This document shows positions 14 through 18,539 of a DNA stretch of 18,539 nt, one piece after another. The DNA is from an archaeon (lineage in GTDB: Archaea > Iainarchaeota > Iainarchaeia > Iainarchaeales > CSSED10-239). Below the pieces are notes generated by a model that worked only from the letters and a program-made list of their open reading frames with translations, was not told the origin of the DNA and ran no database searches. Both the position numbers and the translations under genes were made by a program. Location: contig JBAYPN010000015.1 in the NCBI GenBank assembly GCA_041677685.1, positions 1 to 18,539 of the forward strand, in the 5' to 3' direction. How positions within the stretch are numbered: position 1 is the first letter of the stretch; every line of letters starts with the position of its first letter.

Positions 14-66
14 TTAATATAATATTTAAAAAGTTAATATAATATTTAAAAAGTTAATATAATATT
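14..66. repeat. 20-bp tandem repeat of almost pure A/T, about 2.6 copies (unit TTAATATAATATTTAAAAAG)
   Basis: Perfect copies at 14-33 and 34-53, with a partial copy at 54-66. It lies in a ~208-bp stretch of very high A+T content upstream of the first gene. A further 13-bp direct repeat, ATAATATAGAATA, occurs at 76-88 and 105-117. Confidence 0.8.
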
Positions 67-208: not shown

Positions 209-1201
209 ATGCAATTCAATTTCACTAACTTTTTAGAAATTAAAAAAGATTCTAAAAAAATAAACATTGACCAAACAAGGGTCTGTAACTTAGATGCCTT
301 TTCCTTTATTACTCATGCTCACTCAGACCATGTGTGTAACACCCCCCAAAAGACATTTGCTACAAAAGAAACAATTGATCTTTTAAATCTCTCAATTAAA
401 AATAGTAGATTTGATTTTTTTGAACTAGAGTATGATAAGAAAATAAAGATAACAGATAACTTAATCTTAGAAACATTAAATGCTGGACACATATTAGGAA
501 GCTCCATGTTCTATTTCCAAGATCTAAAAAATGGTAAAGATATCCTTTACACCGGAGACTTTAATAGACACTCCACACTACTGCTAAAAGGAGCAAAGCC
601 AATTACAGCAGACATCCTTTTTTTAGAAACTACTTTTGGAAAACCAGAATTTATTTTTAAAAATAGAAATTCAATTTACTATAGTTTAGCAAAAAAAATA
701 AAAAATGAACTTCTAGAAAATAAACTAATAATTCTTGCAGGTTACTCTTTAGGAAAAAATCAAGAAATAATTTGTTTTGTTAATAACTTTTTAGATGTTA
801 CTCCTCTTGTTGATAGAAAAACATATGATTTTTCAAAGGTCTATAACCAAAATGGATATAATTTAAAATTTGAATTGCTAGATCATAATTTTAGTTTGTC
901 TAATATTCTAATATTGCCTCTCTCTTTAATTAACAGAGATCTACTAAATTCTTTAAGACTACAGTCAGGAAAAAACATCTGCTCATATGTTATGACAGGC
1001 TGGAATTATTCAAGGTCTTCTAACTTAATTAATATCTCTGATCATTGTGATCATAACTCTTTGTTAGACTTTGTAGATGAGGTTAACCCTAAGGTAGTCT
1101 ACACTATGCATGGCTTTTCTAAAAGCTTTGCAAAGTCAATCACCACAAGATTAGGAATAAATGCCTACCCAATAAACATTTTAAGAGAAAAGGGATTATA
1201 G
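209..1201 (+). CDS. beta-CASP family metallo-beta-lactamase-fold nuclease (short form, 330 aa)
   Basis: ATG-initiated 330-aa ORF. It carries the MBL motif 2, HAHSDH (nt 314-331), then NAGHILGSS (motif 3 His) and YTGDF (motif 4 Asp). The beta-CASP motif A is LETTFG (Glu at 626-628). Motifs B and C lie in SDHCDHNSLLDFVDEVNPKVVYTMHG. The substrate (RNA or DNA) cannot be determined from sequence. Confidence 0.8.
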   Translation: MQFNFTNFLEIKKDSKKINIDQTRVCNLDAFSFITHAHSDHVCNTPQKTFATKETIDLLNLSIKNSRFDFFELEYDKKIKITDNLILETLNAGHILGSSMFYFQDLKNGKDILYTGDFNRHSTLLLKGAKPITADILFLETTFGKPEFIFKNRNSIYYSLAKKIKNELLENKLIILAGYSLGKNQEIICFVNNFLDVTPLVDRKTYDFSKVYNQNGYNLKFELLDHNFSLSNILILPLSLINRDLLNSLRLQSGKNICSYVMTGWNYSRSSNLINISDHCDHNSLLDFVDEVNPKVVYTMHGFSKSFAKSITTRLGINAYPINILREKGL

Positions 1202-1303
1202 AGTTATTTCTTACTTAAAGTTATGTATTTATAAATGTTTCTAATTATAATATTTCTAAATAATTTATATAAAAACTTTATAAAAAATATGGAATGGTAG
1301 ATT

Positions 1304-2686
1304 ATGTTTAAGAAATATATACTTTTGTTATTTTCAATAATTTTAATATCAAGTGCATTATTTGCAGGTGCTTCTAGCACAACTGCAGATATCCCACTTG
1401 TCTTTAAATTTAAAGGAGAGTTTATAGATAATGTTGATGATATTACTTTTACATCCGCAACAGTTACTTTTAATAGTGTTCAAATAGCATTTACAAATGA
1501 TAATGATGAATTTTTAGAAGGTTTCTTTTCAGATGTTGTAAACAACATTCCAAAAAATGAAAAGTATTTAGATTTAGAATATAGAATAAAGATTATAGAT
1601 AATTCTGTTGAAGGATTTGGTGTTGCAGAGAATCTATCTTATAATTTTAAAATTCTAAACCCTTACTTTTCAGAATTAGGCGCAGTTTCTTTTAATTATA
1701 TTGATAACGATTCTGTTACAAGTGAAAATATTATAAATGATACTATTAAAGTAAACAAAATTGCTTTAAGATCAGTTACAAATTCAAAAATTAAAGATGA
1801 TGCAATTAATGGGAAATTATCTATGATTTCAACTTCTAAGATTGCAAACAATTCTATAACTAATACTCATATCCAAAATAGCTCAATTAGTCCTGATAAA
1901 TTAAATTCAGTTCAAGTTAATTTAGAAAGCTTAGTTTCTATTAATAGTGAGGGTGCTCTTGCAACAAAAGACTACAACTTTGGAGGTGGTCCTAAAATAG
2001 TTGCACTTGAAGGTTTAGGTTTATCAAACTCTGTTTTAAGTGTTGTGAGTTCAGGAGTTAAGGCAAAGCATATTAAATCAAAAAATATAACAACTCCTAA
2101 GATTGACGTTTCTGCAGTTACTGGTCATAAAATTGCAAATAGTGCAATTACAACAAATAAGATTATTGATTCTTCAGTATCTACAGACAAGGTTTTAAAT
2201 TCTTCAATTGCTACCTCTAAGATTAAAGATTTTGATGTTGGGTTAGAAAAGCTAGATGACAAGATTATTAAATCTACATATTGTGTAAATAAAAAAATAG
2301 AAATTGGACCAGTTATTGAAAATGGTACATTTATAATAGACTCAACTACCCTAAATATAAATGATTCTTGTTTTGTTAACAGAGATGATCCAACAAAAAT
2401 AAGTATAACTTTTGATGTTTCTAACATCTCTGCAAATTATGCATATCAGGGCATATACCTTTTTAATGAATCAGATGATTTGAAATTAACTTCTAGATGG
2501 TTTTGTAGTAAGTTAGGTGGCTATATGTCTGATTTTACTGAAGTTTCAAAATCATATGCTAATGGTTTGGCTTATACTTTTAATAAAGGGAATAATAAGA
2601 ATTATACTTTTGATTATGTTTATAGTGACGATAGTAAAAACTATTTAGAAACTGTAACTTGTGTATTTGAGGAGATTTATAGTTAA
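1304..2686 (+). CDS. secreted fibre-like repeat protein, paralogue 1 (460 aa), function unknown
   Basis: Sec-type signal peptide (MFKKYILLLFSIILISSALFAGA/SS). The N-terminal domain shares motifs with the next two ORFs: IPLVFKFKGEF, GFFSD and NPYFSEL. Two blocks of ~11-residue repeats such as SITNTHIQNSS and AITTNKIIDSS span about nt 1709-2270. The C-terminal domain has four Cys. Confidence 0.8.
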   Translation: MFKKYILLLFSIILISSALFAGASSTTADIPLVFKFKGEFIDNVDDITFTSATVTFNSVQIAFTNDNDEFLEGFFSDVVNNIPKNEKYLDLEYRIKIIDNSVEGFGVAENLSYNFKILNPYFSELGAVSFNYIDNDSVTSENIINDTIKVNKIALRSVTNSKIKDDAINGKLSMISTSKIANNSITNTHIQNSSISPDKLNSVQVNLESLVSINSEGALATKDYNFGGGPKIVALEGLGLSNSVLSVVSSGVKAKHIKSKNITTPKIDVSAVTGHKIANSAITTNKIIDSSVSTDKVLNSSIATSKIKDFDVGLEKLDDKIIKSTYCVNKKIEIGPVIENGTFIIDSTTLNINDSCFVNRDDPTKISITFDVSNISANYAYQGIYLFNESDDLKLTSRWFCSKLGGYMSDFTEVSKSYANGLAYTFNKGNNKNYTFDYVYSDDSKNYLETVTCVFEEIYS

Positions 2687-2699
2687 TTTTTAATTTATA

Positions 2700-2706
2700 A
2701 GGTGAT
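2700..2706 (+). promoter_or_regulatory. Shine-Dalgarno site AGGTGAT for paralogue 2
   Basis: AGGTGAT is complementary to the conserved 16S rRNA 3' end (AUCACCU). It lies 3 nt upstream of the ATG at 2710, inside a 23-nt intergenic spacer. Confidence 0.7.
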
Positions 2707-2709
2707 TTT

Positions 2710-4077
2710 ATGAAAAATAAATTTTTAAAGATTTTTATAATATTTATATTCTTTTTTATAAGTGTTGGGGTGGTAAGTTCATTTAGTATTCCATCAGTTG
2801 TAAAAATTACAGGTAGTATTGATTTAACAGAAACTAATGGAACTTATGTTGTTTATGCTTTTGTTAATGATCATTTAATAGGTTATAAATATTATTCAAA
2901 TTATGATGATTTAAGATTAGGACTTTATAATGGTTTTTTCTCAGACCCATTTGATATTTCTAAAACTGGAGATGGTGAGAGTTATAGTTTTGTTTTAAGT
3001 GTTAGTAGAACATATATAGTAAATGGAATAGACTATACTGTTATTAATAATTCAGACCCTATTCTTTTTCCAAACCCAAATTATAGTAATTTAAGTTATA
3101 CAGTAGACATTGTTGATAGTTCAATTACTACCCCTAAGATTAAAGATAATGCAGTTGGAGAAAATGACTTGGGAGCTAATTCAATTTGGACTGTTAGTAT
3201 TCCTGAAAATGTAGTAACTACAAATAAGATTAAGAATGATTCAATTAAAGGTACAGATTTTTCATTAGAGGCAATTGTTTCTGAAAAAGTAGCTGACAAC
3301 ACTATTGAAAAACCAAAGTTAAAAATAGAACCATCTAATCCTAACACAACCTATTCAGAATTCTTAGCAAAAACAGAAAATGATAATTTTTCTTGGGTTT
3401 CTAATGTTTCAGAAGATTATGAATTTGCTGTTGGGCAAGGTTTGTTTAAGGCTTTTGTTACAATGTCAAATACGACCTATGTAGGTATTGGTAATGAAAA
3501 AGTTGAAACAGGTATGTTTGAAGATAATTCTGTTACAACTAACAAAATAAAAGACTTAGCAGTAACAAATCCTAAACTTTCAGACAACTCAGTTTCAAGA
3601 CAAAAAATTATGGCTGATGCAATTGTTACTAGTAAGATTCAAAATCAAGCTGTAACAAATTCAAAAATTAAAAATAAAAACATAAATCAAGATAAATTAA
3701 ATAACACAGAATACTATTCACTATTAAAGTGTGGTCAAACATATTATAGTGTTTCTGGTAATATGTATGATTTAGAATTTGATAATTGTAATATTAATTA
3801 TAATAATTCAGAAAATAAATATTTAGTAACATATAATAATATTTTAATAAAGAAAGATGCTTCTACTAAATATTATTTTTCAAATAAAGATTTTACAAAA
3901 AATATAAATTTAATAAAAGGTTATTGTAACTCTAGAGGTGGAAGTCTAAACTCATACACTACAGAAAGTGGATCTTTTAATAGCCTTTTAGGTTTGACAG
4001 AAAAAGGAGAATTGCAAGTTGATTCTGGTACTTCTAAAATTAAAAATATAGTTTGTGAATTTTATTATATTGAATGA
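2710..4077 (+). CDS. secreted fibre-like repeat protein, paralogue 2 (455 aa), function unknown
   Basis: Signal peptide (MKNKFLKIFIIFIFFFISVGVVSS). Shared N-terminal motifs IPSVVKITGSI, GFFSD and NPNYSNL. 11-residue repeats start at residue 136 (nt 3115), the same residue number as in paralogue 1, for example SITTPKIKDNA, SVTTNKIKDLA and AVTNSKIKNKN. Four-Cys C-terminal domain. Confidence 0.8.
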   Translation: MKNKFLKIFIIFIFFFISVGVVSSFSIPSVVKITGSIDLTETNGTYVVYAFVNDHLIGYKYYSNYDDLRLGLYNGFFSDPFDISKTGDGESYSFVLSVSRTYIVNGIDYTVINNSDPILFPNPNYSNLSYTVDIVDSSITTPKIKDNAVGENDLGANSIWTVSIPENVVTTNKIKNDSIKGTDFSLEAIVSEKVADNTIEKPKLKIEPSNPNTTYSEFLAKTENDNFSWVSNVSEDYEFAVGQGLFKAFVTMSNTTYVGIGNEKVETGMFEDNSVTTNKIKDLAVTNPKLSDNSVSRQKIMADAIVTSKIQNQAVTNSKIKNKNINQDKLNNTEYYSLLKCGQTYYSVSGNMYDLEFDNCNINYNNSENKYLVTYNNILIKKDASTKYYFSNKDFTKNINLIKGYCNSRGGSLNSYTTESGSFNSLLGLTEKGELQVDSGTSKIKNIVCEFYYIE

Positions 4078-4088
4078 TATTGTATATT

Positions 4089-4095
4089 AGGTGAT
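4089..4095 (+). promoter_or_regulatory. Shine-Dalgarno site AGGTGAT for paralogue 3
   Basis: The same AGGTGAT heptamer as at 2700-2706. It lies 5 nt upstream of the ATG at 4101, and the intergenic spacer is again exactly 23 nt. Confidence 0.7.
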
Positions 4096-4100
4096 TGTAA

Positions 4101-5477
4101 ATGATAAAAAAAATATTTGGAATTTTTGTAATAATAATTAGTTTTCTTTTAATTATAAATGTTGGATATGCACACGATGTTCCTTTTGTAATTAAGATAA
4201 CTGGAGATTTAAATTTAAGTGATACCTCTCAAGATATTGGAATAAAAGCATATGTTAATGTTATATCAAACGATAATTTAGTTTTAGATAAAACAAATTT
4301 ACCATATGCAAACTTTAACTCCGAAATAGCCACTGGTTTTTTTACAGATCCAATTTCTAAAGATTTGACAGGAACTGATAAGACTTTCCCATTAAGAATT
4401 ATAGTTGAAGTAAACAATAGTAGTTTTCCTAAAACAATTTCAATTTCAAATCCAAATTATAGTAGTTTAGAGTATTATGCAAACAATTTAGTGGTTAATT
4501 CTCTAAATAATAATAAATTTGCAGATAAATCAATCACAACAAATAAGCTAAAGGATAACAGTGTTTCAGAAAGTAAAATTAATTATGTTTATGGAGAAAA
4601 TTTAGTAGATAATGCAGTTACTGGTTCAAAGATTAAAAATAATACTTTAACTAAAAGTAATTTTGCAAATGAAGGTCTAAATTATGTTGATTTTAAAATA
4701 TTGAATAATAATTCTGGAATTAATTATTTGTCAAAGAATCCAGATAATTCTGCTTTTGTTGCAGTTGGCACAATTGCAGCTATTGATTTAATGGAAGCTG
4801 GTGCTGGTATATTAAAAACAAACCCTTCTGAAATGAATACTTTTTCAATCAAGGATCTAGGAATTGTAAATAGTATGATTGGTAACAATGAAATTACAAC
4901 TAATAAATTGAATGATGGGGCAATAATTACTTCTAAGCTTGCAGACGACTTTATAACAACAAATAAATTTGCTGAGGGTGCTGTGGAAAATGCAGACTTG
5001 GACATAATGGAAACTGTGGACTTTGCAAACAACTCTTTGACTGTTAAGAAGTTGTCTGAGGAGGCATTGACTGCACTCTTATGTAATTCTGTGGATGTTT
5101 TTGTTTATAGGAGTGGACCAAATACTTCTTTAGGAGTTGCAAGAACAAATCATGATTGTGATGTTAGTTTTAATGGTTCTGAAATAAATGTAACATATGG
5201 AAATGTAAGATTTGAGAATGTGACTGAATTGGATGGTGGACCTTTTAAACTAAATGGAAATGAGATTTCAGGAAAAGCATTTTGTGCATTGCATAATGGT
5301 AAATTTTTAAGTGGTGATGAAGTTAGCGATTCTGTTTCCAATATTGCTTGGGTGCAATCTGATAATCTATGGGCAAGAGGAACAACTACAGAGAAATATT
5401 ATTCAGATATAACTTGTGTTTTTGATGGTGTTACTAAATATTCATCAGGATCATCAGGAAATTCAGGGGTAGAATAA
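4101..5477 (+). CDS. secreted fibre-like repeat protein, paralogue 3 (458 aa), function unknown
   Basis: Signal peptide (MIKKIFGIFVIIISFLLIINVGYA/HD). Shared motifs VPFVIKITGDL, GFFTD and NPNYSSL. 11-residue repeats include SITTNKLKDNS, EITTNKLNDGA and FITTNKFAEGA. Four-Cys C-terminal domain followed by a Ser/Gly-rich tail. Confidence 0.8.
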   Translation: MIKKIFGIFVIIISFLLIINVGYAHDVPFVIKITGDLNLSDTSQDIGIKAYVNVISNDNLVLDKTNLPYANFNSEIATGFFTDPISKDLTGTDKTFPLRIIVEVNNSSFPKTISISNPNYSSLEYYANNLVVNSLNNNKFADKSITTNKLKDNSVSESKINYVYGENLVDNAVTGSKIKNNTLTKSNFANEGLNYVDFKILNNNSGINYLSKNPDNSAFVAVGTIAAIDLMEAGAGILKTNPSEMNTFSIKDLGIVNSMIGNNEITTNKLNDGAIITSKLADDFITTNKFAEGAVENADLDIMETVDFANNSLTVKKLSEEALTALLCNSVDVFVYRSGPNTSLGVARTNHDCDVSFNGSEINVTYGNVRFENVTELDGGPFKLNGNEISGKAFCALHNGKFLSGDEVSDSVSNIAWVQSDNLWARGTTTEKYYSDITCVFDGVTKYSSGSSGNSGVE

Positions 5478-5490
5478 ATTTATCCTACCT

Positions 5491-5510
5491 CTTCTTTTTA
5501 TATTTTTTTA
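5491..5510 (+). terminator. oligo-T tracts, candidate archaeal-type terminator of the three-gene operon
   Basis: CTTCTTTTTATATTTTTTTA has a T5 run and a T7 run within 35 nt of the stop at 5477. No stable hairpin is evident, which fits intrinsic archaeal termination at T tracts. Confidence 0.4.
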
Positions 5511-5561: not shown

Positions 5562-5582
5562 TGACTATAAAGATGTGTGATT

Positions 5583-6482
5583 ATGAGTTCTAAAAGTTTT
5601 TATTCTGAGATACGAAGAAATAATATAAAAACCTATTTTTTAATGTTTATCTTCTTTATCTTAATCTTGGTTATTGGATATTGTTTAAAATTAATATTCT
5701 CATTTGCAGGTTTTGGAATCTTGTTTTTTGCTGGACTCTTTGCAATTATCTTTGCGTTAATAGGTTACTATTCAGGAGACAAAATTGTACTCTCAACCTC
5801 AAAAGCAAAACCAATTGATGAAAAAAATCCAAAACATAAATACTTGGATAATCTAGTTGAGGGATTAGCAATTGCTGCTGGAATCCCAAAACCAAAAGTA
5901 TATGTTATTAATGATGTTTCTCCAAATGCTTTTGCAACTGGAAGAGATCCAAAGCATTCTTCTGTAGCTGTAACTTCTGGTCTTTTAGAGCTTTTAAACA
6001 GAGAGGAGCTAGAAGGAGTAATTGCCCACGAACTTTCACATATAAAAAACAGAGACATAAAAGTTATGATGATTGTTACTGTTCTTTTTGGACTAATAGT
6101 CATGGTGTCAGATATTGCTTTTAGGTCTTTGATATTTGGTGGAGCTTCAGGAGGTGGTAACGATAACAAAGGAGGGATCTTGGTTTTAGTTATAGCCATA
6201 GCTTTTGTAATCTTCTCTCCAATAATTGCCCTACTTATACAGATGTCAATTTCAAGAAAAAGAGAATATTTGGCAGACGCTTCTGGAGCAGAGTTAACAA
6301 GGTACCCAAAAGGTCTTGCAAGTGCTTTAAGAAAGATCTCCTCAATAGACAGACCAGTGGCTTCAGCCTCTAAAGGCTCAGCACATCTATATATTTCTAA
6401 TCCCTTAAAAAGAAAAAAAAGAAATCTATTTTCAACACATCCTCCAATTGAGGAAAGGATTAGAAGATTAGAGGCAATGTAA
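5583..6482 (+). CDS. htpX: HtpX-like M48 family zinc metalloprotease (integral membrane)
   Basis: HEXXH zinc site HELSH at nt 6027-6041 within GVIAHELSHIKNRD. The downstream motif is REYLADASGAELT (third ligand Glu). There are two N-terminal and two central hydrophobic helices, and a C-terminal HPPIEERIRRLE typical of HtpX. The track ORF opens at GTG 5577. I prefer ATG 5583 because of the TATA spacing, but the start is uncertain by 6 nt. Confidence 0.85.
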   Translation: MSSKSFYSEIRRNNIKTYFLMFIFFILILVIGYCLKLIFSFAGFGILFFAGLFAIIFALIGYYSGDKIVLSTSKAKPIDEKNPKHKYLDNLVEGLAIAAGIPKPKVYVINDVSPNAFATGRDPKHSSVAVTSGLLELLNREELEGVIAHELSHIKNRDIKVMMIVTVLFGLIVMVSDIAFRSLIFGGASGGGNDNKGGILVLVIAIAFVIFSPIIALLIQMSISRKREYLADASGAELTRYPKGLASALRKISSIDRPVASASKGSAHLYISNPLKRKKRNLFSTHPPIEERIRRLEAM

Positions 6483-6594: not shown

Positions 6595-6688
6595 ATTCTT
6601 TCTTATATATTAATAAATTGTTTGCTAGAAATATCTTTTTTTACCCACACAGAAAAAGATTCTTTCTTATATATTAATAAATTGTTTG
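6595..6688 (+). repeat. perfect 30-bp direct repeat (6595-6624 and 6659-6688) flanking a hairpin
   Basis: ATTCTTTCTTATATATTAATAAATTGTTTG occurs twice, 64 bp apart start to start. Each copy contains TTATATAT (6603-6610 and 6667-6674). Between the copies, ATCTTTTT (6633-6640) pairs with AAAAAGAT (6653-6660) around a 12-nt loop. Confidence 0.85.
6667..6674 (+). promoter_or_regulatory. TATA-box-like TTATATAT proximal to the NurA-like gene
   Basis: The box centre is about 30 nt upstream of ATG 6701, inside the second copy of the 30-bp repeat. An identical box sits at 6603-6610 in the first copy. Confidence 0.3.
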
Positions 6689-7974: not shown

Positions 7975-8436
7975 ATGACAGAAAATGACATTAACACAAA
8001 ACAGAAATTTCTAGAGTTGTTACTCAAAGAAGACACAAAAGAACTGGGTTTGAGTGATCTTATTCAAATCCAAGAAAAGTTTAATGATCCATTAATACTT
8101 TCAGTAATCATTCATCAATTAATAGAAGAAAGAAAAAAGACAAACAACATACTTTTAGAACTAAGAGAGAAGTATGATAGCTTACAGTTTTTAGTTAAAA
8201 ACAACATAAAGACTAAGCAAGAACAAAACACAGATGTTTACAACATATTACCAGAGATAGATGACAAGATAATTTCTTTTATTAAAGTTAAACAAAAAGT
8301 TGACGCTGAGATGGTCCAAAATGAATTTAATTATAAGGGATCAAATGCAGCATCACAGAGATTAAACAAACTAGTAAACAATGGATACTTAAGGAAAGTG
8401 CAAGCAGGAAGAAAGGTATACTTTATTGTTAGGTAA
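7975..8436 (+). CDS. small winged helix-turn-helix DNA-binding protein (153 aa)
   Basis: The N-terminal half is charged and helical. The C-terminal ~60 aa have a classic wHTH pattern: DDKIISFIKVKQKVDAEMVQNEFNYKGSNAASQRLNKLVNNGYLRKVQAGRKVYFIV. This reads as helix, recognition helix and then a beta-hairpin wing containing GRK. Confidence 0.6.
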   Translation: MTENDINTKQKFLELLLKEDTKELGLSDLIQIQEKFNDPLILSVIIHQLIEERKKTNNILLELREKYDSLQFLVKNNIKTKQEQNTDVYNILPEIDDKIISFIKVKQKVDAEMVQNEFNYKGSNAASQRLNKLVNNGYLRKVQAGRKVYFIVR

Positions 8437-9210: not shown

Positions 9211-9360
9211 AGACTTTCCATATATAGATATATTTATATATAATTTGATGTAAATTATAATTATAAATTAAGAATAATATTTAAATCTAAAAACAACAAA
9301 ACAGAAAGAATAAAGAACAACAAAAACACAGCATTAAACATTTGTTTGGAAAGTATAGAT

Positions 9361-12300
9361 ATGGGTAAGGAAGAAAAAAAAAGAAATAATTTTTTCTCAA
9401 AAATATACAGTAGCTTAGAAAAAGGTTATTATAATTTTTCAAATTGGTTAACAAAGAAAGGAATCAACCTAAATGCTTTAAATAAAAAATTAGAAAATAA
9501 AGGAGTTCCTCCATTTATCTTGTTTGGTTCAATCTTACTAATTATAATCTTACTAGTATTATTCTTATTTGTGTTTAATGTTAATGCAACTTCTGAAATC
9601 AAATTTAGTATTCAAGGTTCTGACAACAAGTCAATCAATGATGCAAGCCTTGTGATTAAAGATGTTAAAGGTAAAAAGGTATTTTCAGGAACAGTAAACA
9701 ACAACGATGTTATTAAGATAAATCTAAAGCCAGGAAAAACATATTCCTTTTCTGCAATGAAAGATGGTTATAAGCCTTTTAACAAAGACTTTTTAATTGA
9801 ATCAAAAGAAGACCTAATTGTAATTGTTTTTAATGAAATTATTCAGAACGGAATCTTACAAATTAAAATAATAGATTCTCAAGACAAAAGAATTGTTGCA
9901 AATGCTCTAGTTACTGTTAGCTACTTGCTTGATGGGAAAAGAACAGAAATCTCAGGTAAACCAGATAAAAATAATTTCTATGATGTTAACTTACAAGTCC
10001 CAATCAACAAGGACATAGAGCTAATTGTCTCTGCTGACAAATACCAAGACCATAAAGAAACAATAAGATTAAATTCTGAAGCAGAAACTAGAAACATAGA
10101 GCTTGTTTTTAATAGTGGGCTTTTAGAAGGAAAAAGCAGAATTACTTTTGTGGTTAATGATGAGGCTGGAGAGTTGTTGAATGATTCTATAGTTGAAGTC
10201 TATAATCTATCTGATCAACTAATAGCTCAGAACAGAACTGTTGATGGAAGAGCAATTATTGATGTTGATTCTGGCTCAACAATCAACTACAAGGTAAGTA
10301 AAGAAGAATACAGGACCTTTGTAAGTGATCCTTTAATCTCTTTTAAAATATTAAACAAAGAAGAGATAATAAACATTACCCTAAAGAAAGGAGGAAGCTC
10401 TTTGAAAGTAAAAATACTTGATTCAATTTCCTTTAATCTTTTACAAGATGCTTCTGTCTCCATTTATGATCAAAACCAATCATTGTTAGACAACAAGACA
10501 ACTGACCTTTCAGGAACTATCAACTTCCAAGGCTTAGAAACAAACTCAGAGTTTATTGTTGTTGGTTGTAAGCAAAATTATTTTTGTGAAAGTAAAAAAG
10601 TTTCTTTAATTAATTTCTCAGAACTAGAGTTAAGGTTAGAAGAAATAAACATAAATAATAGTGCAATTTTAGAAGTCTTTGTTGTTGACTTTAAAAATCT
10701 ACCTGTAGATAATGCAAAAATTAAAATCTTTGAAATAAAAGATGAAATTGAATATCCTTATAATGATGAACCATTTGTTCTAGATGCAACTGGTGGACTT
10801 TCCTTACCTTTAAAGGTTGGTTCTAAATATCTTGTGTATGCTTATGTTGGAGATGTTGAAGACTACCAGTATATAACCATTAGTAACAAACTACAAAATA
10901 GAATTATTTTTACAATTGAGCAATCTTCAAAAATCTTAACCTTAGACTTACTAGATAGCTTTGGACAGAAAATAAGTTCAGGACATGTATCAATTTCTGC
11001 AAAGGACGGAACAATTTTATATGACTCAGACATCAACTCTGCATTAGATGATATTATGTTTCGTACAGATGGTTATTCTGACTTTATATTAAATTACACA
11101 GATTCAAATGGTGTAACAACAACTGGGACACTATCAGCAAATGATGCAGACTCAGCAAACCATTTAGGCTTTAAACTTAACCCTAAAGTAGTTGGTGATT
11201 TTCCAATCATTGACTTTGTAGGCATACAGAATAGTAGAGGGGAAAAAATAAATTATATTTCTCCAAACAATGATTATTATTTAATATTTGATGTAATTGT
11301 TCCACAAGGCACAACCAAAGCAGGAGTGCATATTAGAGCTGGAGAGGACACTGTTACTGATTCTGAAAATCAAAGTTATGGAATCACAGGCTTTATGGCA
11401 GACACAACAAACTTCACCTACTCAACAACCTACAATCCTTTACCTGAACCTGGTTCACAATCAATAGATGTCTTAAACCAAGGAAATGCAGGAAACATTA
11501 ACAAATGGATTGAGCTAAAATGGGATAATAAGCTTGGAGTTACAAACAAGCAAATTAAAATTAAAGTAAAAGCAATTGACTCTTCTACATTTAAACCAAA
11601 ATTTAAATACAGGGCATGGGTTGAAAGAGACTTTGAGGTTTACAGAGATCCACAAGACTCAACCCTACAAAAGAAATACTCAACAAACAACAGACAACAA
11701 CTTTATGCAGACACAAAAGAAATAACTGTAGAGTTATTTGATGTTCCTGCAGAATGTAAAGATGATATTTGTGTGTCTTATAGCTTTATTGACTCAGATG
11801 GAATTAGTTATTCTAAAGAGGACTTTTTTGCATTAAAGGGAGATGTGTTTGCTTTAGAAGCTACACTTTACAGTAATAAAAATAGAGTAATTAAATTAAA
11901 CACAAAGACATCAACTACCCAACCAGCAATCTCATTTATAAGTGCTGATGAAGGAACTTTAGCTTTTCCAACAAACTTTAATCTAGGCACAATTTCAGAA
12001 CTTGAACTAAACAAAGATGGAATTAATTTAAGGGCTGGAGAGCGAAACAAAGTCTACACTTACTTTGTCTCAAAAGCAATTGGTGTAAGTTATATTGATT
12101 CAAAATTTATTTTAGAAGATGACTCTGCTCTTGAACAAAGATTAAGCTTTGAGGTTCTTGACAAAAGATACTTAAGAATATTATTTAATCCTGACCTAAT
12201 ATTACCATTTGGTTCTAAACTAGAGTTAGAGGTCTTTGATTCAGCAAATGGAAACCCAATTGAAAATGCTTTTATAAAGATTGAAGATGAGCAAGGGCAA

Positions 12301-15300
12301 TTTATAAGACTAATAAAAGGAGATAGACTAAATGGAAGGGCAGGAAAATATGTAATCAATTCAGATTTTGTTGTAAACAAATTAAATTTAACAATCTCTG
12401 CTTATGGTTATGTGCCATTTACCAAACAACTTTTGATTGCTGATGACTCTGTTCTTGTTGCTCCAAAGGAAGTGTTGATTAACTTAGGGGTTGATCAAAT
12501 TTCTCAAACTGTAAATTTCAATTTAGAAAATATTTCTGACACCTCAGTAACTGACATCTATGTTGGAGAACCTGTTTGGGTAAATGGGGCTGACACCTTG
12601 ACTTTGGATGTTAGAGGACCACCAAGTGTTACTAAGAAAAATAAAATAAACTTTCAAGCAATTGCAACAGTTTCAAAAGATGCATTATTTGATTCTGCAT
12701 ATGCAAATGTTCCAATCTATGGGCTTGTGGGGAATAGGCAAGTTGCAACTGTTGTTTCTATAAGGATAAACAGAGGGTTGATAGTTGATGACTGTTTGGT
12801 AATTGCACCAAAAAAGATTGACACTTTTGTTGGGCTAAACACCAATTTCAATTATGATGATTATTATGGGGCTGGAGACTACCAAGACTTTATAGGCTCA
12901 CAAAATTTAAATTATACACCTAATCAAAGCTATAACACAGGATATGGTGGGTCTATTCCAGGTTCAAGTAATTCCAATTCCAACTACAATTATTATAATG
13001 ATGGCTTTAACAGATATATTAACAACTTCATAACCTCTAGAGCAGGAGCCTCTGAAAACACAGTAGTTTTTACTATTCAGAATAAATGTGAACAAATAGT
13101 TTTCTTAAACCCAAAGTTAGTTCCAATCTCTTCAAATTCAAACAATGATCTTGAAATTATATTAAATCAGTTGACTATACTTCCAGGTGAAGAAAAGCTA
13201 TATGATGTGCTTATTAAAAACACAAGTGATAGAGAACAAATTAAAAAATATAAATTTAATATTTTGTGGGAAAATTCTTTTTATAATCTTTCACCTACAG
13301 AACTTAATGTTGACTTGATAGATGTAAGTAAAGCTTTGTGGGTTGCACCTACACAATTACAGATCTATTTATCACAGACAACCGAACAACAACCAGCAAT
13401 AACAAGCACAAGAATTATGATTAAAAATATTGGAAATGTTCCAATAACTGACATACAGATAAGCACTTACCCACAGATCAAGTCTGCAAATATTGGAGTA
13501 ACTGAATACCCAAGGGAGATAAAGATTTTAGAGCCTGGTAAACGAGTTCCTGTTGATCTAAAGTTTACAGTTAACATTAATAGAGCAACTTTAGAAGACA
13601 TGTACTTTGTTGTTACTGGAAAGGCAGCAGGTGTGAAAAATCCAGTCTTTGCAAAAACAACTGCCTACTTTTTAATTTCTTCTCCTAATTGTCTAAAGAT
13701 TAGTCCTAAAAATCTAGACTTTACTTTAAATTTAGGAGAGAAAAAAGCAAGAAATATTTCTATTAATAACCAATGTGCAGAGCCTGTAGCAATTGTTGGA
13801 ATTGATAAAAGACTTGGTAGTTACCAACAAGCCTTTGGGAATAACGCTGTGTCTTTAGTTCCAACATCTGGGATGGGGGTAATTCCACCAAACGGTTTTG
13901 CAGACTTTTCATTTTCAATAACTGCAAATGCATATGGTGGACAACCAAAGGTTCCTGTAACAATTATTGGACAAGCTTTAAATTCAGGTAATTATGTAAC
14001 TTCAGAGAGCACTTTAGTTTCTTTAAATATTCTATCTAAAGATCAAGATGAACAAAATGATTTCTTACAATCTTTTGAAGTAACTCTTCCTGTTTGTAAT
14101 AACCCTTCTGAGTCTAAGACTGTGTACATGCCTTTAATCTCTGTTAATGACTGTACAGGTAGGGATGGTTATTGTGATTCTTATGGAGCTTCTGAATTGA
14201 TACTATCAAAGATTGATGAGATGTATGGAAAAATACAGACAGTTGCTGCACACTCCCAAAATCAATTATTAAAAACTGGTTGTTCTGTTCAAAAGGCTTT
14301 ACAAGGATATTGTCCAATCTCTGATCTTGGGGGGGACTTAGGTCCTGTTGAGTTTGATGTTTACCTACAGAACGATTCTTTATCTTATGACCTAGTCAAA
14401 GAGATCTTAAGCAAATCAGATTATAAATTTAAAAAATATTTTGTTGATGTTGCAGTTCCAAACAGTAACCTTACAGGGTATGGTACCTATCAATATGGGG
14501 GGAAAATAAACATCCCTAATCTTTCTGGTTGTGGGAAATATAAATTAGAGTTGAATGCCTTTATTGGAGCTAACCAAGACAGCATCTTTCCAAACAGAGT
14601 TAACTTCTTAGTAAATTTAGTTTCTTATAAACAAACTGAACAATGTGAAAAAAGTATTGAAAATTATTTAAATTATTTGCCGTGGGACATAGACCTTACA
14701 AAGAATAAAAGTAAAGGCACCTGGTTAACTGTGTTTTCAGGTGATGAGAATGTAGCAAAAGAGATTTTAAGTGGAGTTAGTAAATTTGAAAAGAATGATA
14801 ATAGATATGTGAAGGGTAACATTCCAAGCACTAAACAAAATCATCTTAACATCAGAGTTGGAAAGATTAATGAAGATCAAGAGGCTTTAGCAAAAATATA
14901 CTTTAATGATCTACAAAAAAGTCCTTCCTCTAAACCTGAACAACTAAATATTGTAATAAATAATAGATATGCAATTTCTGGAACTTCACAATTGCCTGAA
15001 AAAGTATTGACTGATGCTAAGATCTTAATCAATAATTTTATAAGTAAGACTGATTATACAGAAAATTGTATTTCAGAAAATCTAGATTATATGTTAATCT
15101 TAAAAGTTATAAAAGCAGGGAGATTAGAATTTGATCCTAAAGAAAAGACAAGTGTTGTTTTAGTTGATAAAGTTTGTACTGATCTAAACATTGTTTCTGA
15201 TATTTTAGAAAATGTTGTTTTAAACCTAAAAGCACCAAATGACCTAAACACTTGGTTTGAATATAGAAATAAAAAATATGATTCTCTTGGTTTAGATTTA

Positions 15301-17367: not shown

Positions 17368-17421
17368 TTTTTTTTAATTTTTCTTTTTAGATTTTAATTT
17401 TTCTTTTTAGATTTTAATTTT
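17368..17421 (+). terminator. T-rich 20-bp tandem repeat (about 2.5 copies) immediately after the giant gene, candidate terminator
   Basis: A T8 run starts right after the TAG stop. The unit (A/T)TTTTAATTTTTCTTTTTAG occurs at 17371-17390 and 17391-17410, with a partial copy at 17411-17421. Each unit carries T4-T5 runs. Confidence 0.45.
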
Positions 17422-17577
17422 ATTATAAAGTATTTTTCTTATTTTGGTGTACATGCTTATGTTTGTTTTCAAGATATAAAAAAAATAAGGAAGCTAGGCA
17501 TAAAACTTCAACCATCTCTATTTATAAACTTTTTCATAATATATATTATTAATTTTATTAAAAATTATATATTTTTT

Positions 17578-17590: not shown

Positions 17591-18539
17591 ATGTTTGAAT
17601 TATTTAAGAATAGTAAGGGTCAGATTTCTGTTGAAGTTTTGACAATTGTTGGAATATTAGTTATTGGTGGAATTATTTTTGGAGTGTTTTATTTATCTCA
17701 GATTAATAGAAGTATAGATGATGCTGATCAATTAGACACTAGTATAGGCGATCAATTTGGAGAGGTTTTGACACCTGTGGGAATGGGTAATATTCTTCCA
17801 ACTTGTTCTGATAATATACAGAATGGACTAGAGCAAGGTGTAGATTGTGGAGGTCCTTGTCCACCGTGTGTAATTTCTGGTGATGATTGTGGGGATGGTT
17901 ATTGTGATGTTCTTGGGGGAGAATGTGATACTTGTCCTCAAGATTGTATAAATAATGAGTGTGATCCAATTCCAACAACTTTTCTTTTAGAAGTAGATCC
18001 TGAGAGTTACACAGGATTTGTTGGACAGACTTATTATGGTCCTGAAGTTACTATTATTTTAAATCAATCTTCTAGTGTTGATTTGTCATTAAAGGTTGAA
18101 AAAAATAATGCTTTAAATAATTTAATAATTACAGATGAATGTACTTATGATGGTATCCAAATTAATGGTAATACTTTTATTGGAAATTACACTTCTGATG
18201 CTATTTTCTTTAAAAATATTGTATGTTCTCAAGAAGACACTTATTATTTCACATTTACTGGTGATGATGGTGAATATCAGATTATAAGACCATTCGAATA
18301 CACAACAACCTCAGATATCACTCCTCCAGGAAACAACAATTATGCTCTATGTTCAACTTCTGCTCTTTCAGGAGGCTCTGATACTTTAAGAGTTTGTTTA
18401 AATGATTATACAACTACTTTAGACTTAGGTGGTTCTGACTATTTAACAATCTATGTTAACCAACCAGATGCTTTAGAAAATAATTGTAAGCTTACTTCAA
18501 AGGGTAGCAAGATTTGTGTGTATGTTGGTAATAGTTGGA
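17591..18539 (+). CDS. archaeal type IV pilin-like protein with class III signal peptide and a Cys-rich module (3'-truncated by the window end)
   Basis: This ORF is not in the supplied track because it has no stop inside the window. I translated it by hand and it stays open for 316 codons from ATG 17591. The N-terminus is MFELFKNSKG/QISVEVLTIVGILVIGGIIFGVF. That matches the archaeal prepilin (class III, DUF361-type) signature: a short basic leader, KG, then Q-x-S-x-E and a hydrophobic helix. A 10-Cys module follows (nt 17804-17962), and then a beta-rich region. Confidence 0.8.
   Translation, partial: MFELFKNSKGQISVEVLTIVGILVIGGIIFGVFYLSQINRSIDDADQLDTSIGDQFGEVLTPVGMGNILPTCSDNIQNGLEQGVDCGGPCPPCVISGDDCGDGYCDVLGGECDTCPQDCINNECDPIPTTFLLEVDPESYTGFVGQTYYGPEVTIILNQSSSVDLSLKVEKNNALNNLIITDECTYDGIQINGNTFIGNYTSDAIFFKNIVCSQEDTYYFTFTGDDGEYQIIRPFEYTTTSDITPPGNNNYALCSTSALSGGSDTLRVCLNDYTTTLDLGGSDYLTIYVNQPDALENNCKLTSKGSKICVYVGNSW

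What the first reader, a model, noticed from the sequence alone, without database searches (positions are those of the whole stretch)
1304..5477. Tandem triplication of an uncharacterised secreted fibre-like protein in a tight operon
Three consecutive + strand ORFs of 460, 455 and 458 aa share one architecture:
- a Sec signal peptide
- a ~110-aa N-terminal domain with conserved (I/V)P.V.K..G, GFF(S/T)D and NP(N/Y)(Y/F)S.L motifs
- repeat block A, a ~50-60-aa insert and repeat block B
- a four-Cys C-terminal domain
Both intergenic spacers are exactly 23 nt and both contain AGGTGAT, so the genes are almost certainly co-transcribed and translated individually. I recognise no enzymatic or known S-layer signature. 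The layout (anchor domain, repetitive shaft, variable distal head) matches that of viral receptor-binding fibres and trimeric adhesins. Three diverged copies side by side suggest diversification of binding specificity at the cell surface. That would be notable in a host-dependent archaeon.
Basis: partly seen in the sequence, partly recalled or inferred. Interest (0 to 1): 0.78.

Follow-up and report, generated by a model that had tools for sequence, protein, structure and literature searches.

The report
Phage-fibre-like surface protein triplet
A tiny DPANN archaeon (Candidatus Iainarchaeum) carries an operon of three secreted proteins whose shafts are built from the repeats used in phage tail fibres, and these fast-evolving proteins with swappable tips are good candidates for how the cell grips a partner or a surface.

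Summary
Three intact + strand ORFs (460, 455 and 458 aa) are separated by two 23-nt spacers, each carrying AGGTGAT. All three share one layout: signal peptide, ~105-aa N-domain, repeat block, knob, repeat block, four-Cys C-domain.

What tools add:
- **Organism.** The window is 99.96% identical to a Candidatus Iainarchaeum sp. (DPANN) MAG.
- **Repeat.** The unit is a decapeptide, not an 11-mer.
- **Shaft.** The central module is homologous to phage tail-fibre shafts (PHROG 892, E 1e-23).
- **Rarity.** The N-domain has 13 matches (E <= 0.001) among 1.84 billion representative proteins, nearly all with the same layout.
- **Terminal folds.** Neither terminal domain matched a solved structure significantly; only the C-domain was also searched against predicted viral structures.
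- **Age.** The ordered triplet is conserved in one more lineage, and its last two genes in a third.
- **Rate.** P3 is 41% identical between two genomes where the adjacent HtpX is 88% identical.
- **Locus.** The site between an MBL-fold gene and htpX is hypervariable, holding zero to three family genes, duplication scars and exchanged heads.

Best reading: trimeric, phage-fibre-like surface adhesins with a conserved docking end and variable binding tips. Trimer state, surface location and ligand are inferred, not shown. This is a new variant of a known kind; interest is moderate to high.

The parts
1202..1303 (+). Intergenic region upstream of P1. It is the only plausible promoter for the three genes.
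   Evidence: It contains TATA-like TTTATATA at 1264-1271 and TTTATAAAAA at 1277-1286. There is no AGGTGAT before the first ATG, which fits a leaderless or short-leader first gene. This is weak evidence in DNA of 27% GC.
1304..2686 (+). P1, 460 aa. Domains: signal peptide aa 1-27; N-domain aa 28-135 (nt 1385-1708); decapeptide block A aa 136-205; knob aa 206-250; decapeptide block B aa 251-320; four-Cys C-domain aa 321-460 (nt 2264-2683; Cys 327, 356, 401, 453).
   Evidence: PHROG tail-fibre hits fall on aa 249-335. The protein differs by one residue from NCBI PHU32_03410 of Candidatus Iainarchaeum sp..
2687..2709 (+). 23-nt spacer with the Shine-Dalgarno-like AGGTGAT at 2700-2706.
   Evidence: The same motif is present in the L001 spacer.
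2710..4077 (+). P2, 455 aa. Domains: signal peptide aa 1-25; N-domain aa 26-134 (nt 2785-3111); block A aa 135-205; knob aa 206-263; block B aa 264-333; C-domain aa 334-455 (nt 3709-4074; Cys 341, 360, 406, 449).
   Evidence: PHROG 892 E 1e-23. The C-domain AlphaFold2 model has pLDDT 75 and pTM 0.70. The ortholog P0002 is 60% identical.
4078..4100 (+). 23-nt spacer with AGGTGAT at 4089-4095.
   Evidence: The motif is conserved in L001 and L004.
4101..5477 (+). P3, 458 aa. Domains: signal peptide aa 1-25; N-domain aa 26-130 (nt 4176-4490); block A aa 131-190; knob aa 191-253; block B aa 254-320; C-domain aa 321-458 (nt 5061-5474; Cys 328, 353, 395, 439).
   Evidence: In the AlphaFold2 model the N-domain has pLDDT 78-88 and is a beta-sandwich. 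Orthologs are in L001 (54%) and L004/P0085 (41%).
5495..5509 (+). T5 and T7 tracts 18-32 nt after the P3 stop codon. This is the probable end of the transcription unit.
   Evidence: The sequence was read directly. The inference rests on the known use of oligo-T tracts as archaeal terminators.
209..1201 (+). Left border gene of the variable locus, an MBL-fold/RMMBL hydrolase.
   Evidence: Pfam. In relatives it directly abuts htpX (L012) or is separated from it by other cargo (L011, L054).
5577..6482 (+). Right border gene, the HtpX (M48) protease. It starts a conserved block: htpX, NurA, wHTH, a 111-aa membrane protein and a giant protein.
   Evidence: Pfam E 4e-38. Synteny is seen in L008, L014, L053, L057 and L060. 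HtpX is 88% identical to the L004 copy where P3 is 41% identical.

Best explanation
**What the genes encode.** The three genes encode exported, modular fibre proteins of a Candidatus Iainarchaeum (DPANN) cell. Each has four parts: a cleavable Sec-type signal peptide; a conserved ~105-aa beta-sandwich N-domain; a shaft; and a small disulfide-stabilised C-terminal head.

**Shaft.** The shaft has two blocks of 6-7 decapeptide repeats ([ND]-[SA]-[IV]-[TS]-[TS]-x-K-[IL]-x-[DN]) around a ~50-aa knob. It is homologous to the shafts of bacteriophage tail fibres.

**Proposed mechanism (inferred).**
- The chains assemble into trimeric fibres, as phage fibres and YadA-type adhesins with this repeat do.
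- The conserved N-domain docks the fibre non-covalently to a conserved envelope component. No C-terminal membrane anchor or sortase-type signal was evident in the sequences or in the Pfam/NCBIfam scans.
- The variable C-head, distal from the cell, binds a ligand on a partner cell or on a surface.

**Expression (inferred).** The three old paralogs are read from one transcript. The first gene lacks a Shine-Dalgarno sequence. The two internal genes are each re-initiated at an AGGTGAT. The cell would then display three specificities at once.

**Diversification.** The locus diversifies in three ways: fast sequence change, tandem duplication and exchange of heads. The breakpoints seen fall near the middle of the proteins.

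**Shown versus inferred.** Shown: architecture, shaft homology, rarity, conservation of the ordered triplet, fast evolution, mosaicism and chromosomal context. Inferred: export, trimerisation, surface docking, ligand binding and co-transcription.
For: **Architecture and operon signals.**

**Shaft homology.**
- Tail-fibre PHROGs 892, 28766, 21412 and 7660 match.
- tblastn finds annotated phage tail-fibre or tail proteins.
- The same repeat occurs in proteins with a YadA anchor, Peptidase_S74, Peptidase_G2, DUF5907 or the Pfam 'Decapeptide' entry.
- It also occurs in orf16, a 269-aa chain of PDB entry 9EG4, the Legionella phage LME-1 capsid. The paper on that entry describes a trimeric head-decoration fibre; that orf16 is this protein is my inference.

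**Family definition.** A profile of the N-domain scored against 1.84 billion representatives gives only 13 hits at E <= 0.001. Nearly all have a signal peptide, the N-domain, decapeptides and a Cys-containing C-terminus of differing type.

**Cellular, not viral.**
- The genes lie between an MBL-fold gene and htpX-NurA.
- The same position is used in L008, L007, L010 and L004.
- No relatives were found in viral contigs.

**Maintained, not decaying.** The P1-P2-P3 order is kept in L001, and P2-P3 in L004. The ORFs are intact and pN/pS is 0.45-0.88.

**Fast evolution focused on the head.**
- P3 is 41% identical where HtpX is 88% identical.
- In near-identical P1 variants from other samples, changes fall in the C-domain at 18/140 positions against 14/293 elsewhere (Fisher p 0.005).

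**Modular exchange.**
- P0086 and the second L008 gene are 32-55% identical over the first 200 aa, then 100% identical.
- P0086 and the second L007 gene are 87-100% identical at first, then below 30%.

**Duplication scars.** An htpX 5' fragment lies between the tandem fibre genes in L007, L008 and L009. L007 has a further fragment upstream of its first fibre gene, and the last fibre gene is followed by intact htpX in L007 and L008.
Against: - There is no direct evidence of trimerisation. The AlphaFold2 monomer model is below pLDDT 50 for the knob and block B, and no multimer run was possible.
- The N-domain matches only generic Ig-like sandwiches (best E 0.02). The C-domain matches nothing in the PDB or BFVD. 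Neither docking nor ligand binding is therefore supported by fold.
- The repeat has a 5-residue sub-period. Repeat relatives give weak hits to Pentapeptide_4 and to the DotG repeats. A monomeric solenoid is not excluded.
- No anchor was identified, so the proteins could simply be released.
- pS of about 0.5 is near saturation in this AT-rich DNA, so the rate ratios are rough.
- The P1 variants come from short read-assembled contigs, and some differences may be assembly errors.
- The lifestyle of this lineage is unknown, and no partner organism is known.
Confidence: 0.55

Rival explanations
1. **Heterotrimeric fibre.** P1, P2 and P3 would be the three different chains of one fibre. The tight operon would supply them in equal amounts.
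For: - There are exactly three genes, in the same order, in the window and in L001; L004 keeps the P2-P3 pair.
- The three have near-equal lengths and the same block layout.
- The spacers and Shine-Dalgarno sequences are identical in form.
- There is no homogenisation between copies. Orthologs are 54-61% identical, paralogs 22-25%.
- Pasteuria ramosa offers a precedent in kind. Its collagen-like adhesin genes lie in ordered triplets, one from each of three groups (PMC13233619).
Against: - P2 carries one extra decapeptide in block B relative to P1 and P3. P3 has an 8-residue insertion there.
- More distant family loci have two genes with separate intergenic regions, or possibly one (L007, L008, L010). 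The family can therefore work without a set of three.
- The heads are too diverged to be recognisably alike.
Confidence: 0.15
2. **Viral remnant.** The genes would be the receptor-binding proteins of an integrated or degraded archaeal virus, or of a tailocin-like particle. They would not be a cellular adhesin system.
For: - The shaft is homologous to phage tail fibres.
- Mosaic head exchange and fast evolution are typical of viral receptor-binding proteins.
- The genes sit as an insertion between two genes that abut in a relative, L012.
Against: - No capsid, portal, terminase, baseplate or integrase gene lies within 18.5 kb.
- No tRNA is present, and no flanking direct repeats were found.
- The same chromosomal position is occupied in several diverged lineages.
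- A Sec-type signal peptide is unusual for virion fibres.
- No relatives were found in 2.9 million viral contigs.
- No PHROG matches the N- or C-domain.
Confidence: 0.1
3. **Monomeric solenoid.** The repeats would fold as a pentapeptide-like beta-solenoid. The protein would be a secreted binding protein or enzyme-free scaffold rather than an intertwined trimeric fibre. Its role could be matrix, biofilm or surface coating, or a decoy against viruses.
For: - The repeats show a 5-residue sub-period.
- Repeat relatives give weak hits to Pentapeptide_4 (below the cut-off) and to the DotG repeat region.
- Block A is modelled at pLDDT of about 73 as a regular 10-residue unit in the monomer.
Against: - The three proteins have no Pfam pentapeptide hit, even at E <= 1.
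- Every annotated relative of the repeat is a trimeric fibre module.
- AlphaFold2 normally models pentapeptide solenoids confidently (my own knowledge, not tested here), yet block B is below pLDDT 50.
Confidence: 0.12

Closest known systems
Bacteriophage tail fibres with decapeptide-repeat shafts (PHROG 892/28766; 'tail fiber-like protein' of T7-like cyanophage S-TIP37; Marinitoga phage MPV1 tail fibre; 'WIAG tail domain protein'; Pfam DUF5907 and 'Decapeptide' PF25296)
   Same: - The central module (block A, knob, block B) is homologous, at 25-30% identity over about 200 aa.
- The overall logic is the same: a conserved N-terminal attachment end and a variable C-terminal tip.
- Both show mosaic exchange of tips and fast evolution.
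   Different: - The genes are chromosomal in an archaeon, among housekeeping genes, with no virion genes nearby.
- The proteins carry Sec-type signal peptides.
- The N- and C-domains have no detectable relatives in PHROGs, and the C-domain model none in BFVD.
- There is no C-terminal intramolecular chaperone (Peptidase_S74 or G2).
Trimeric autotransporter adhesins (YadA family)
   Same: - Both are fibrous adhesin designs: a repetitive stalk plus a binding head.
- Some repeat relatives found here (P0004, P0005) join the same decapeptide stalk to a YadA anchor.
   Different: - There is no YadA beta-barrel anchor.
- Archaea have no outer membrane.
- The polarity is reversed. Here the variable head is C-terminal.
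Pasteuria ramosa collagen-like protein (PCL) triplets
   Same: - Both are ordered tandem triplets of diverged paralogous fibre genes in one orientation.
- Both show variation concentrated in the C-terminal globular domain (reported as polymorphic in Pasteuria).
- Both show duplication and turnover.
- The Pasteuria genes are thought to set attachment specificity in a host-parasite pair (PMC13233619).
   Different: - The shaft chemistry is different: G-X-Y collagen against a decapeptide repeat.
- The Pasteuria genes are bacterial.
- There is no sequence relationship. This is an analogy only.
Variable proteins of diversity-generating retroelements in DPANN/CPR organisms
   Same: Both are surface-exposed binding proteins of ultrasmall organisms in which diversification is focused on a C-terminal ligand-binding domain.
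   Different: - The window has no reverse transcriptase and no template/variable repeat pair.
- The C-domain model gives no C-type-lectin match.
- Diversification here is by paralogy, recombination and ordinary substitution.

Membership tests
Phage tail fibre / receptor-binding protein | Shaft homologous to known tail-fibre shafts | tested here: met
   PHROG 892 gives E 1e-23, 4e-14 and 3e-13 for P2, P1 and P3. tblastn finds annotated tail-fibre proteins at E down to 4e-11.
Phage tail fibre / receptor-binding protein | Encoded in a virus or prophage next to virion structural genes | tested here: not met
   The neighbours are an MBL hydrolase, HtpX, NurA, a wHTH protein, a membrane protein and a giant surface protein. 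No relatives were found in viral contigs. No tRNA or att-like repeats are present.
Phage tail fibre / receptor-binding protein | N-terminal virion-attachment domain related to phage ones | tested here: not met
   No PHROG covers aa 26-135. Foldseek finds only generic Ig-like sandwiches at E >= 0.02.
Phage tail fibre / receptor-binding protein | Homotrimeric intertwined assembly | not testable with these tools
   Only monomer AlphaFold2 was available. The shaft is at low confidence.
Trimeric autotransporter adhesin (YadA-like) | C-terminal YadA_anchor beta-barrel | tested here: not met
   There is no Pfam hit at E <= 1. The proteins end in the four-Cys domain.
Pentapeptide-repeat protein (right-handed quadrilateral beta-helix) | Match to Pfam Pentapeptide models; strict 5-residue period | tested here: not met
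   There is no Pfam hit. The dominant period is 10, with a weaker peak at 5.
DGR variable protein | Nearby reverse transcriptase and a template/variable repeat pair | tested here: not met
   There is no long near-identical repeat and no RT domain in the window ORFs.
DGR variable protein | C-type-lectin-fold C-terminal domain | tested here: not met
   The C-domain model (pLDDT 75) has no C-type-lectin match in the PDB. The best hit has E 0.15.
Archaeal S-layer or PGF-CTERM/archaeosortase-anchored surface protein | S-layer family HMM, or a C-terminal sorting signal or TM helix | tested here: not met
   There are no Pfam or NCBIfam hits. The C-termini are hydrophilic...CVFEEIYS...CEFYYIE...SGNSGVE.
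Anti-phage defence system component | Match to a PADLOC model | tested here: not met
   No families matched at E <= 0.01.
New family defined here (Iainarchaeal N-domain fibre proteins) | Signal peptide, the (I/V)PxVxK..G...GFFxD...NPNY N-domain, decapeptide repeats and a Cys-containing C-terminus, encoded upstream of htpX | tested here: met
   All three window proteins fit, as do P0002, P0084-P0090 and the second genes of L007 and L008.

The most novel reading that the evidence does not exclude
The conserved, ordered P1-P2-P3 triplet may encode the three distinct chains of one heterotrimeric, phage-fibre-like adhesin. That adhesin would sit on the envelope of a DPANN archaeon and mediate recognition of a specific partner cell. 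The htpX-adjacent locus would act as a recombination cassette site where heads are swapped to change partner specificity. This would be an archaeal, non-viral counterpart of phage host-range switching and of the Pasteuria collagen-like adhesin triplets.
Probability: 0.12. Interest if true: 0.85.

Novelty: new variant of a known kind. Interest (0 to 1): 0.6.

Why it matters
How DPANN archaea recognise and hold on to partner cells or surfaces is largely unknown at the molecular level, and few candidate adhesins have been named.

This locus offers a concrete, testable candidate:
- a secreted protein family built on a phage tail-fibre shaft, but with its own docking and tip domains;
- confined to a narrow clade;
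- evolving several times faster than its neighbours;
- diversifying by duplication and head exchange at a fixed chromosomal site.

If the function is confirmed, it would show that cells as well as viruses use this fibre design for specificity. It would also provide a marker locus for following partner specificity in Iainarchaeota metagenomes.

If the proteins turn out to be ordinary secreted repeat proteins, the locus remains a clean example of a hypervariable surface-protein island in a reduced genome.

Tried and rejected
- **C-type-lectin idea for the head.** The motifs FCxxxGG...S and (I/V)xC(E/V)F recalled the CTLD alpha1 and beta5 elements. I modelled the P2 C-domain (pLDDT 75) and searched the PDB and BFVD. 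There was no CTLD match and no significant match at all. Rejected.
- **DGR.** No TR/VR-like repeats and no RT. Rejected.
- **11-residue repeat.** My first guess was wrong. Motif spacing and self-similarity show a period of 10.
- **The search for homologous proteins with the N-domain alignment.** It returned nothing, not even the window's own proteins. This looks like a limit of the word index for short domain queries. The exhaustive profile search replaced it.
- **The search for related loci with the N-domain alignment.** With the P3-type alignment the tool chose signal-peptide patterns and found nothing. Searching with the conserved neighbour HtpX and then scanning the flanks locally worked.
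- **FlaF-like S-layer binding for the N-domain.** The match is only weak (4zbh, E 0.026, probability 0.44, TM 0.24). Kept as a lead, not a finding.
- **N-glycosylation sequon enrichment.** There are 11-12 sequons per protein against 8.5-9.7 expected from composition. Not informative.
- **Defence-system membership.** No PADLOC hit.
- **Flanking repeats or a tRNA as signs of a mobile element.** None found.

Full report
**1.

The window has three consecutive + strand ORFs at 1304-2686, 2710-4077 and 4101-5477, of 460, 455 and 458 aa. Both spacers are 23 nt. Each carries AGGTGAT 3-5 nt upstream of the ATG. That heptamer occurs only three times in 18.5 kb. The same motif sits in the corresponding spacers of two other lineages.

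No other gene start in the window has this motif, and the first gene of the three lacks it. This fits the common archaeal pattern of a leaderless first gene with Shine-Dalgarno sequences on internal operon genes (established knowledge, not tested here). T5 and T7 tracts follow the third stop codon.

The three proteins are 22-25% identical to each other. Full-length BLASTP E-values are 9e-11, 3e-8 and 6e-26. All share these features:
- a KK-hydrophobic-small-x-small N-terminus;
- two repeat blocks around an insert;
- exactly four Cys, all in the last ~130 residues.

I make two corrections. First, the repeat unit is a decapeptide, [ND]-[SA]-[IV]-[TS]-[TS]-x-K-[IL]-x-[DN]. Self-similarity peaks at lags 10 and 20, with minor peaks at 5 and 15. 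Second, the C-domains are so diverged that BLAST sees nothing. Profile-profile comparison is only marginal (P 0.0014, 0.0042 and 0.026). The P1-P3 comparison aligns the Cys of both profiles in register; the weakest, P1-P2, covers only the second and third Cys.

**2. Source organism and context**

The window is 99.96% identical over 12 kb to contig JAQVAQ010000018.1 of GCA_028690785.1. NCBI names this MAG Candidatus Iainarchaeum sp.. It belongs to the phylum Iainarchaeota in the Nanobdellati, that is DPANN.

The flanking genes are:
- an MBL-fold/RMMBL hydrolase (209-1201);
- HtpX (5577-6482);
- a NurA nuclease;
- a wHTH protein;
- a 111-aa membrane protein;
- a 2673-aa protein with CarboxypepD_reg-like domains.

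Nothing viral is present. There is no tRNA, no long repeat pair of the DGR kind, and no repeats flanking the operon.

**3. What the proteins are made of**

Pfam and NCBIfam give no family, even at E <= 1. PHROGs does give hits. The central part of all three matches tail-fibre families 892 (E 1e-23, 4e-14 and 3e-13) and 28766; 21412 and 7660 match P1 and P2.

tblastn against 50,697 phage genomes finds 57 records. All cover roughly residues 131-334 at 25-30% identity. They include:
- the 'tail fiber-like protein' of T7-like cyanophage S-TIP37;
- the Marinitoga phage MPV1 tail fibre;
- 'host specificity protein J' of the DSS3 phages;
- a 'WIAG tail domain protein'.

In the 5.8-billion-protein collection, repeat-only relatives join the same decapeptides to a YadA anchor, Peptidase_S74, Peptidase_G2, a GDSL esterase, DUF5907 or the Pfam 'Decapeptide' region. 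The only PDB sequence with the repeat is orf16, a chain of entry 9EG4, the capsid of Legionella phage LME-1. The paper on that structure describes a trimeric head-decoration fibre whose distal part was not modelled; that orf16 is this fibre is my inference (PMC12407071).

Every annotated context of this repeat is therefore a trimeric fibre. This is why I infer a trimeric shaft here, although I could not test it.

**4. The terminal domains are new**

A profile of the N-domain was scored against all 1.84 billion representative proteins. It found 13 proteins at E <= 0.001. These are the paralogs' own clusters, their orthologs (P0002, P0084, P0085) and a handful of more distant proteins (P0086-P0090).

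The distant proteins again consist of a signal peptide, the N-domain and decapeptide repeats, often with a '(V/L)LxY....W' knob. Their Cys-containing C-termini are of different kinds.

AlphaFold2 models the P3 N-domain with pLDDT 78-88 as a beta-sandwich with one helix. Block A is modelled at about 73 as a regular 10-residue unit. The knob and block B fall below 50. Foldseek against the PDB gives only generic Ig-like sandwiches at E >= 0.02. Among them is a weak match to the S-layer-binding FlaF domain, which I treat as a lead only.

The P2 C-domain, modelled alone, reaches pLDDT 75 and pTM 0.70. It has six short strands, one helix carrying Cys3, and a long hairpin carrying Cys4. It has no significant match in the PDB or in BFVD. 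My C-type-lectin idea is therefore not supported.

**5. Evolution of the locus**

The ordered triplet is old and maintained.
- Contig L001 carries orthologs of P1, P2 and P3 in the same order. They are 55%, 61% and 54% identical, and the spacers are 23 and 25 nt.
- L004 carries the end of a P2-type gene, a 23-nt spacer, a P3-type gene (41%) and then htpX.
- Orthologs are far more alike than paralogs, so there has been no gene conversion.
- The ORFs are intact and pN/pS is 0.45-0.88. The ratio is rough because pS of about 0.5 is near saturation.

Between the window and L004, HtpX is 88% identical but P3 only 41%. The fibre genes thus evolve several times faster than their neighbour. Near-identical P1 variants from other samples differ from P1 mainly in the C-domain: 18 of 140 positions against 14 of 293 elsewhere (p 0.005).

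More distant relatives keep the same site between the MBL gene and htpX-NurA-wHTH-membrane-giant, but with different content.
- Two family genes in L008 and at least two in L007; at least one in L010.
- A 475-aa protein in L013 and L060 with a weak N-domain match (E 0.002) and 31 Cys.
- An unrelated 222-aa Cys-rich secreted protein in L011.
- A 9-kb insert with other Cys-rich proteins in L054.
- Nothing at all in L012, where the MBL gene abuts htpX.

In L007, L008 and L009 a 21-codon fragment of the htpX 5' end lies between the tandem fibre genes, and L007 has a further fragment upstream of its first fibre gene. The duplicated unit therefore included the start of htpX.

Heads have been exchanged.
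- P0086 and the second L008 gene are 32-55% identical over the first 200 residues and 100% identical afterwards.
- P0086 and the second L007 gene are 87-100% identical over about 160 residues and below 30% afterwards.

The breakpoints lie at about residues 160-200 of these proteins. I did not map them to a domain, but by analogy with the window proteins this is where the repeat region would lie.

**6. Most likely mechanism**

My best reading is as follows.
- **Export.** The proteins are exported through Sec and cleaved.
- **Assembly.** They trimerise through the decapeptide shaft.
- **Docking.** The conserved N-domain docks on a conserved envelope component. No membrane anchor, lipobox or C-terminal sorting signal was evident in the sequences or in the Pfam/NCBIfam scans.
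- **Binding.** The disulfide-braced C-heads are presented outward as binding tips.
- **Specificity.** Three co-expressed paralogs give three specificities, and the locus renews tips by duplication and recombination.

The polarity (constant N, variable C) is that of phage fibres, not of YadA adhesins. I put this at about 0.55.

The rivals are:
- a heterotrimer of the three chains (0.15), with the Pasteuria collagen-like adhesin triplets as an analogy (PMC13233619);
- a monomeric pentapeptide-like solenoid with some other extracellular role (0.12);
- a viral or tailocin remnant (0.10).

**7. Comparison with what is known**

The shaft is a member of a known repeat family. The protein as a whole is not a member of any described family.
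- It fails the tests for a virion fibre (context, N-domain, chaperone).
- It fails the test for a trimeric autotransporter (anchor).
- It fails the tests for a DGR target (RT, repeats, lectin fold).
- It fails the tests for a pentapeptide-repeat protein and for an S-layer or PGF-CTERM protein.

My literature searches for DUF5907, for decapeptide repeats with tail fibres, and for DPANN or Iainarchaeota with tail fibres or adhesins found no description of it. One cryo-tomography study of a DPANN co-culture reports antenna-like filaments with bulb-like tips 'reminiscent of bacteriophage tail fibers'. Those are on the host cell, not the DPANN cell, and are unrelated by any evidence here (PMC11329633).

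**8. Verdict**

Oligomeric state, location and function remain untested.

It is a new variant of a known kind: a cellular, archaeal, Sec-exported fibre family. It uses a phage tail-fibre shaft with novel end domains, sits at a hypervariable chromosomal site, and is conserved as an ordered triplet. Interest is 0.6.

Noticed in passing
window 9346-17367 (+): A giant 2673-aa ORF with an N-terminal membrane segment. It has CarboxypepD_reg-like, MG3-like and DUF7507-like stretches, and a C-terminal region with hydrophobic, Cys-containing segments. It is conserved in synteny downstream of htpX-NurA-wHTH-membrane in relatives (39-48% identity in L014, L053 and L057). It is a candidate envelope platform, and possibly the docking partner of the fibre N-domain. 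That last point is pure speculation.
   Followed up: partly
window 17591-18539 (+), runs off the end: An ORF starting MFELFKNSKGQISVEVLTIVGILVIGGIIF. This is a class III (type IV pilin-like) signal of the KGQxSxExL type, followed by a Cys-rich region (CGGPCPPC...). Similar class-III-signal Cys-rich ORFs fill the MBL-htpX gap in L054 (2237-2785 and 2961-5558).
   Followed up: partly
L007 19-81 and 1466-1528; L008 1625-1687; L009 1545-1607: Fragments of about 21 codons from the htpX 5' end lie between the tandem fibre genes, and in L007 also upstream of the first one. They are scars showing that tandem duplication copied the fibre gene together with the start of htpX. The window's own triplet has no such scars.
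   Followed up: yes
L007 190-2638; L008 316-2970: The family members are mosaic. Identical C-halves are joined to different N-halves, and the reverse. The breakpoints lie near residues 160-200.
   Followed up: yes
L012 34-2002; L011 7387-8055; L013 8803-9866 / L060 5594-7018; L054 600-9900: The MBL-htpX junction is a variable hotspot across Iainarchaeota-like genomes. It is empty in L012. It holds a 222-aa Cys-rich secreted protein in L011 and a 475-aa protein with a weak N-domain match (E 0.002) and 31 Cys in L060/L013. In L054 it holds a 9-kb insert.
   Followed up: partly
window 6595-6624 and 6659-6688: A perfect 30-nt direct repeat (ATTCTTTCTTATATATTAATAAATTGTTTG), spaced 64 nt start to start, lies just upstream of and overlapping the TTG start called for the NurA gene. 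Its function is unknown.
   Followed up: no
window 16-65 and 17373-17427: Short 20-nt tandem repeats in intergenic AT-rich DNA: AATATAATATTTAAAAAGTT twice at the left end, and TTTAATTTTTCTTTTTAGAT-like units after the giant gene.
   Followed up: no
window 7975-8436 (+): A 153-aa protein with a C-terminal winged-helix-like end (weak SoFic-like_C match). It is highly conserved (59-65% identity) and syntenic in all relatives. In L005 it lies directly downstream of a 682-aa family member. It could be a regulator of the surface-protein neighbourhood.
   Followed up: no
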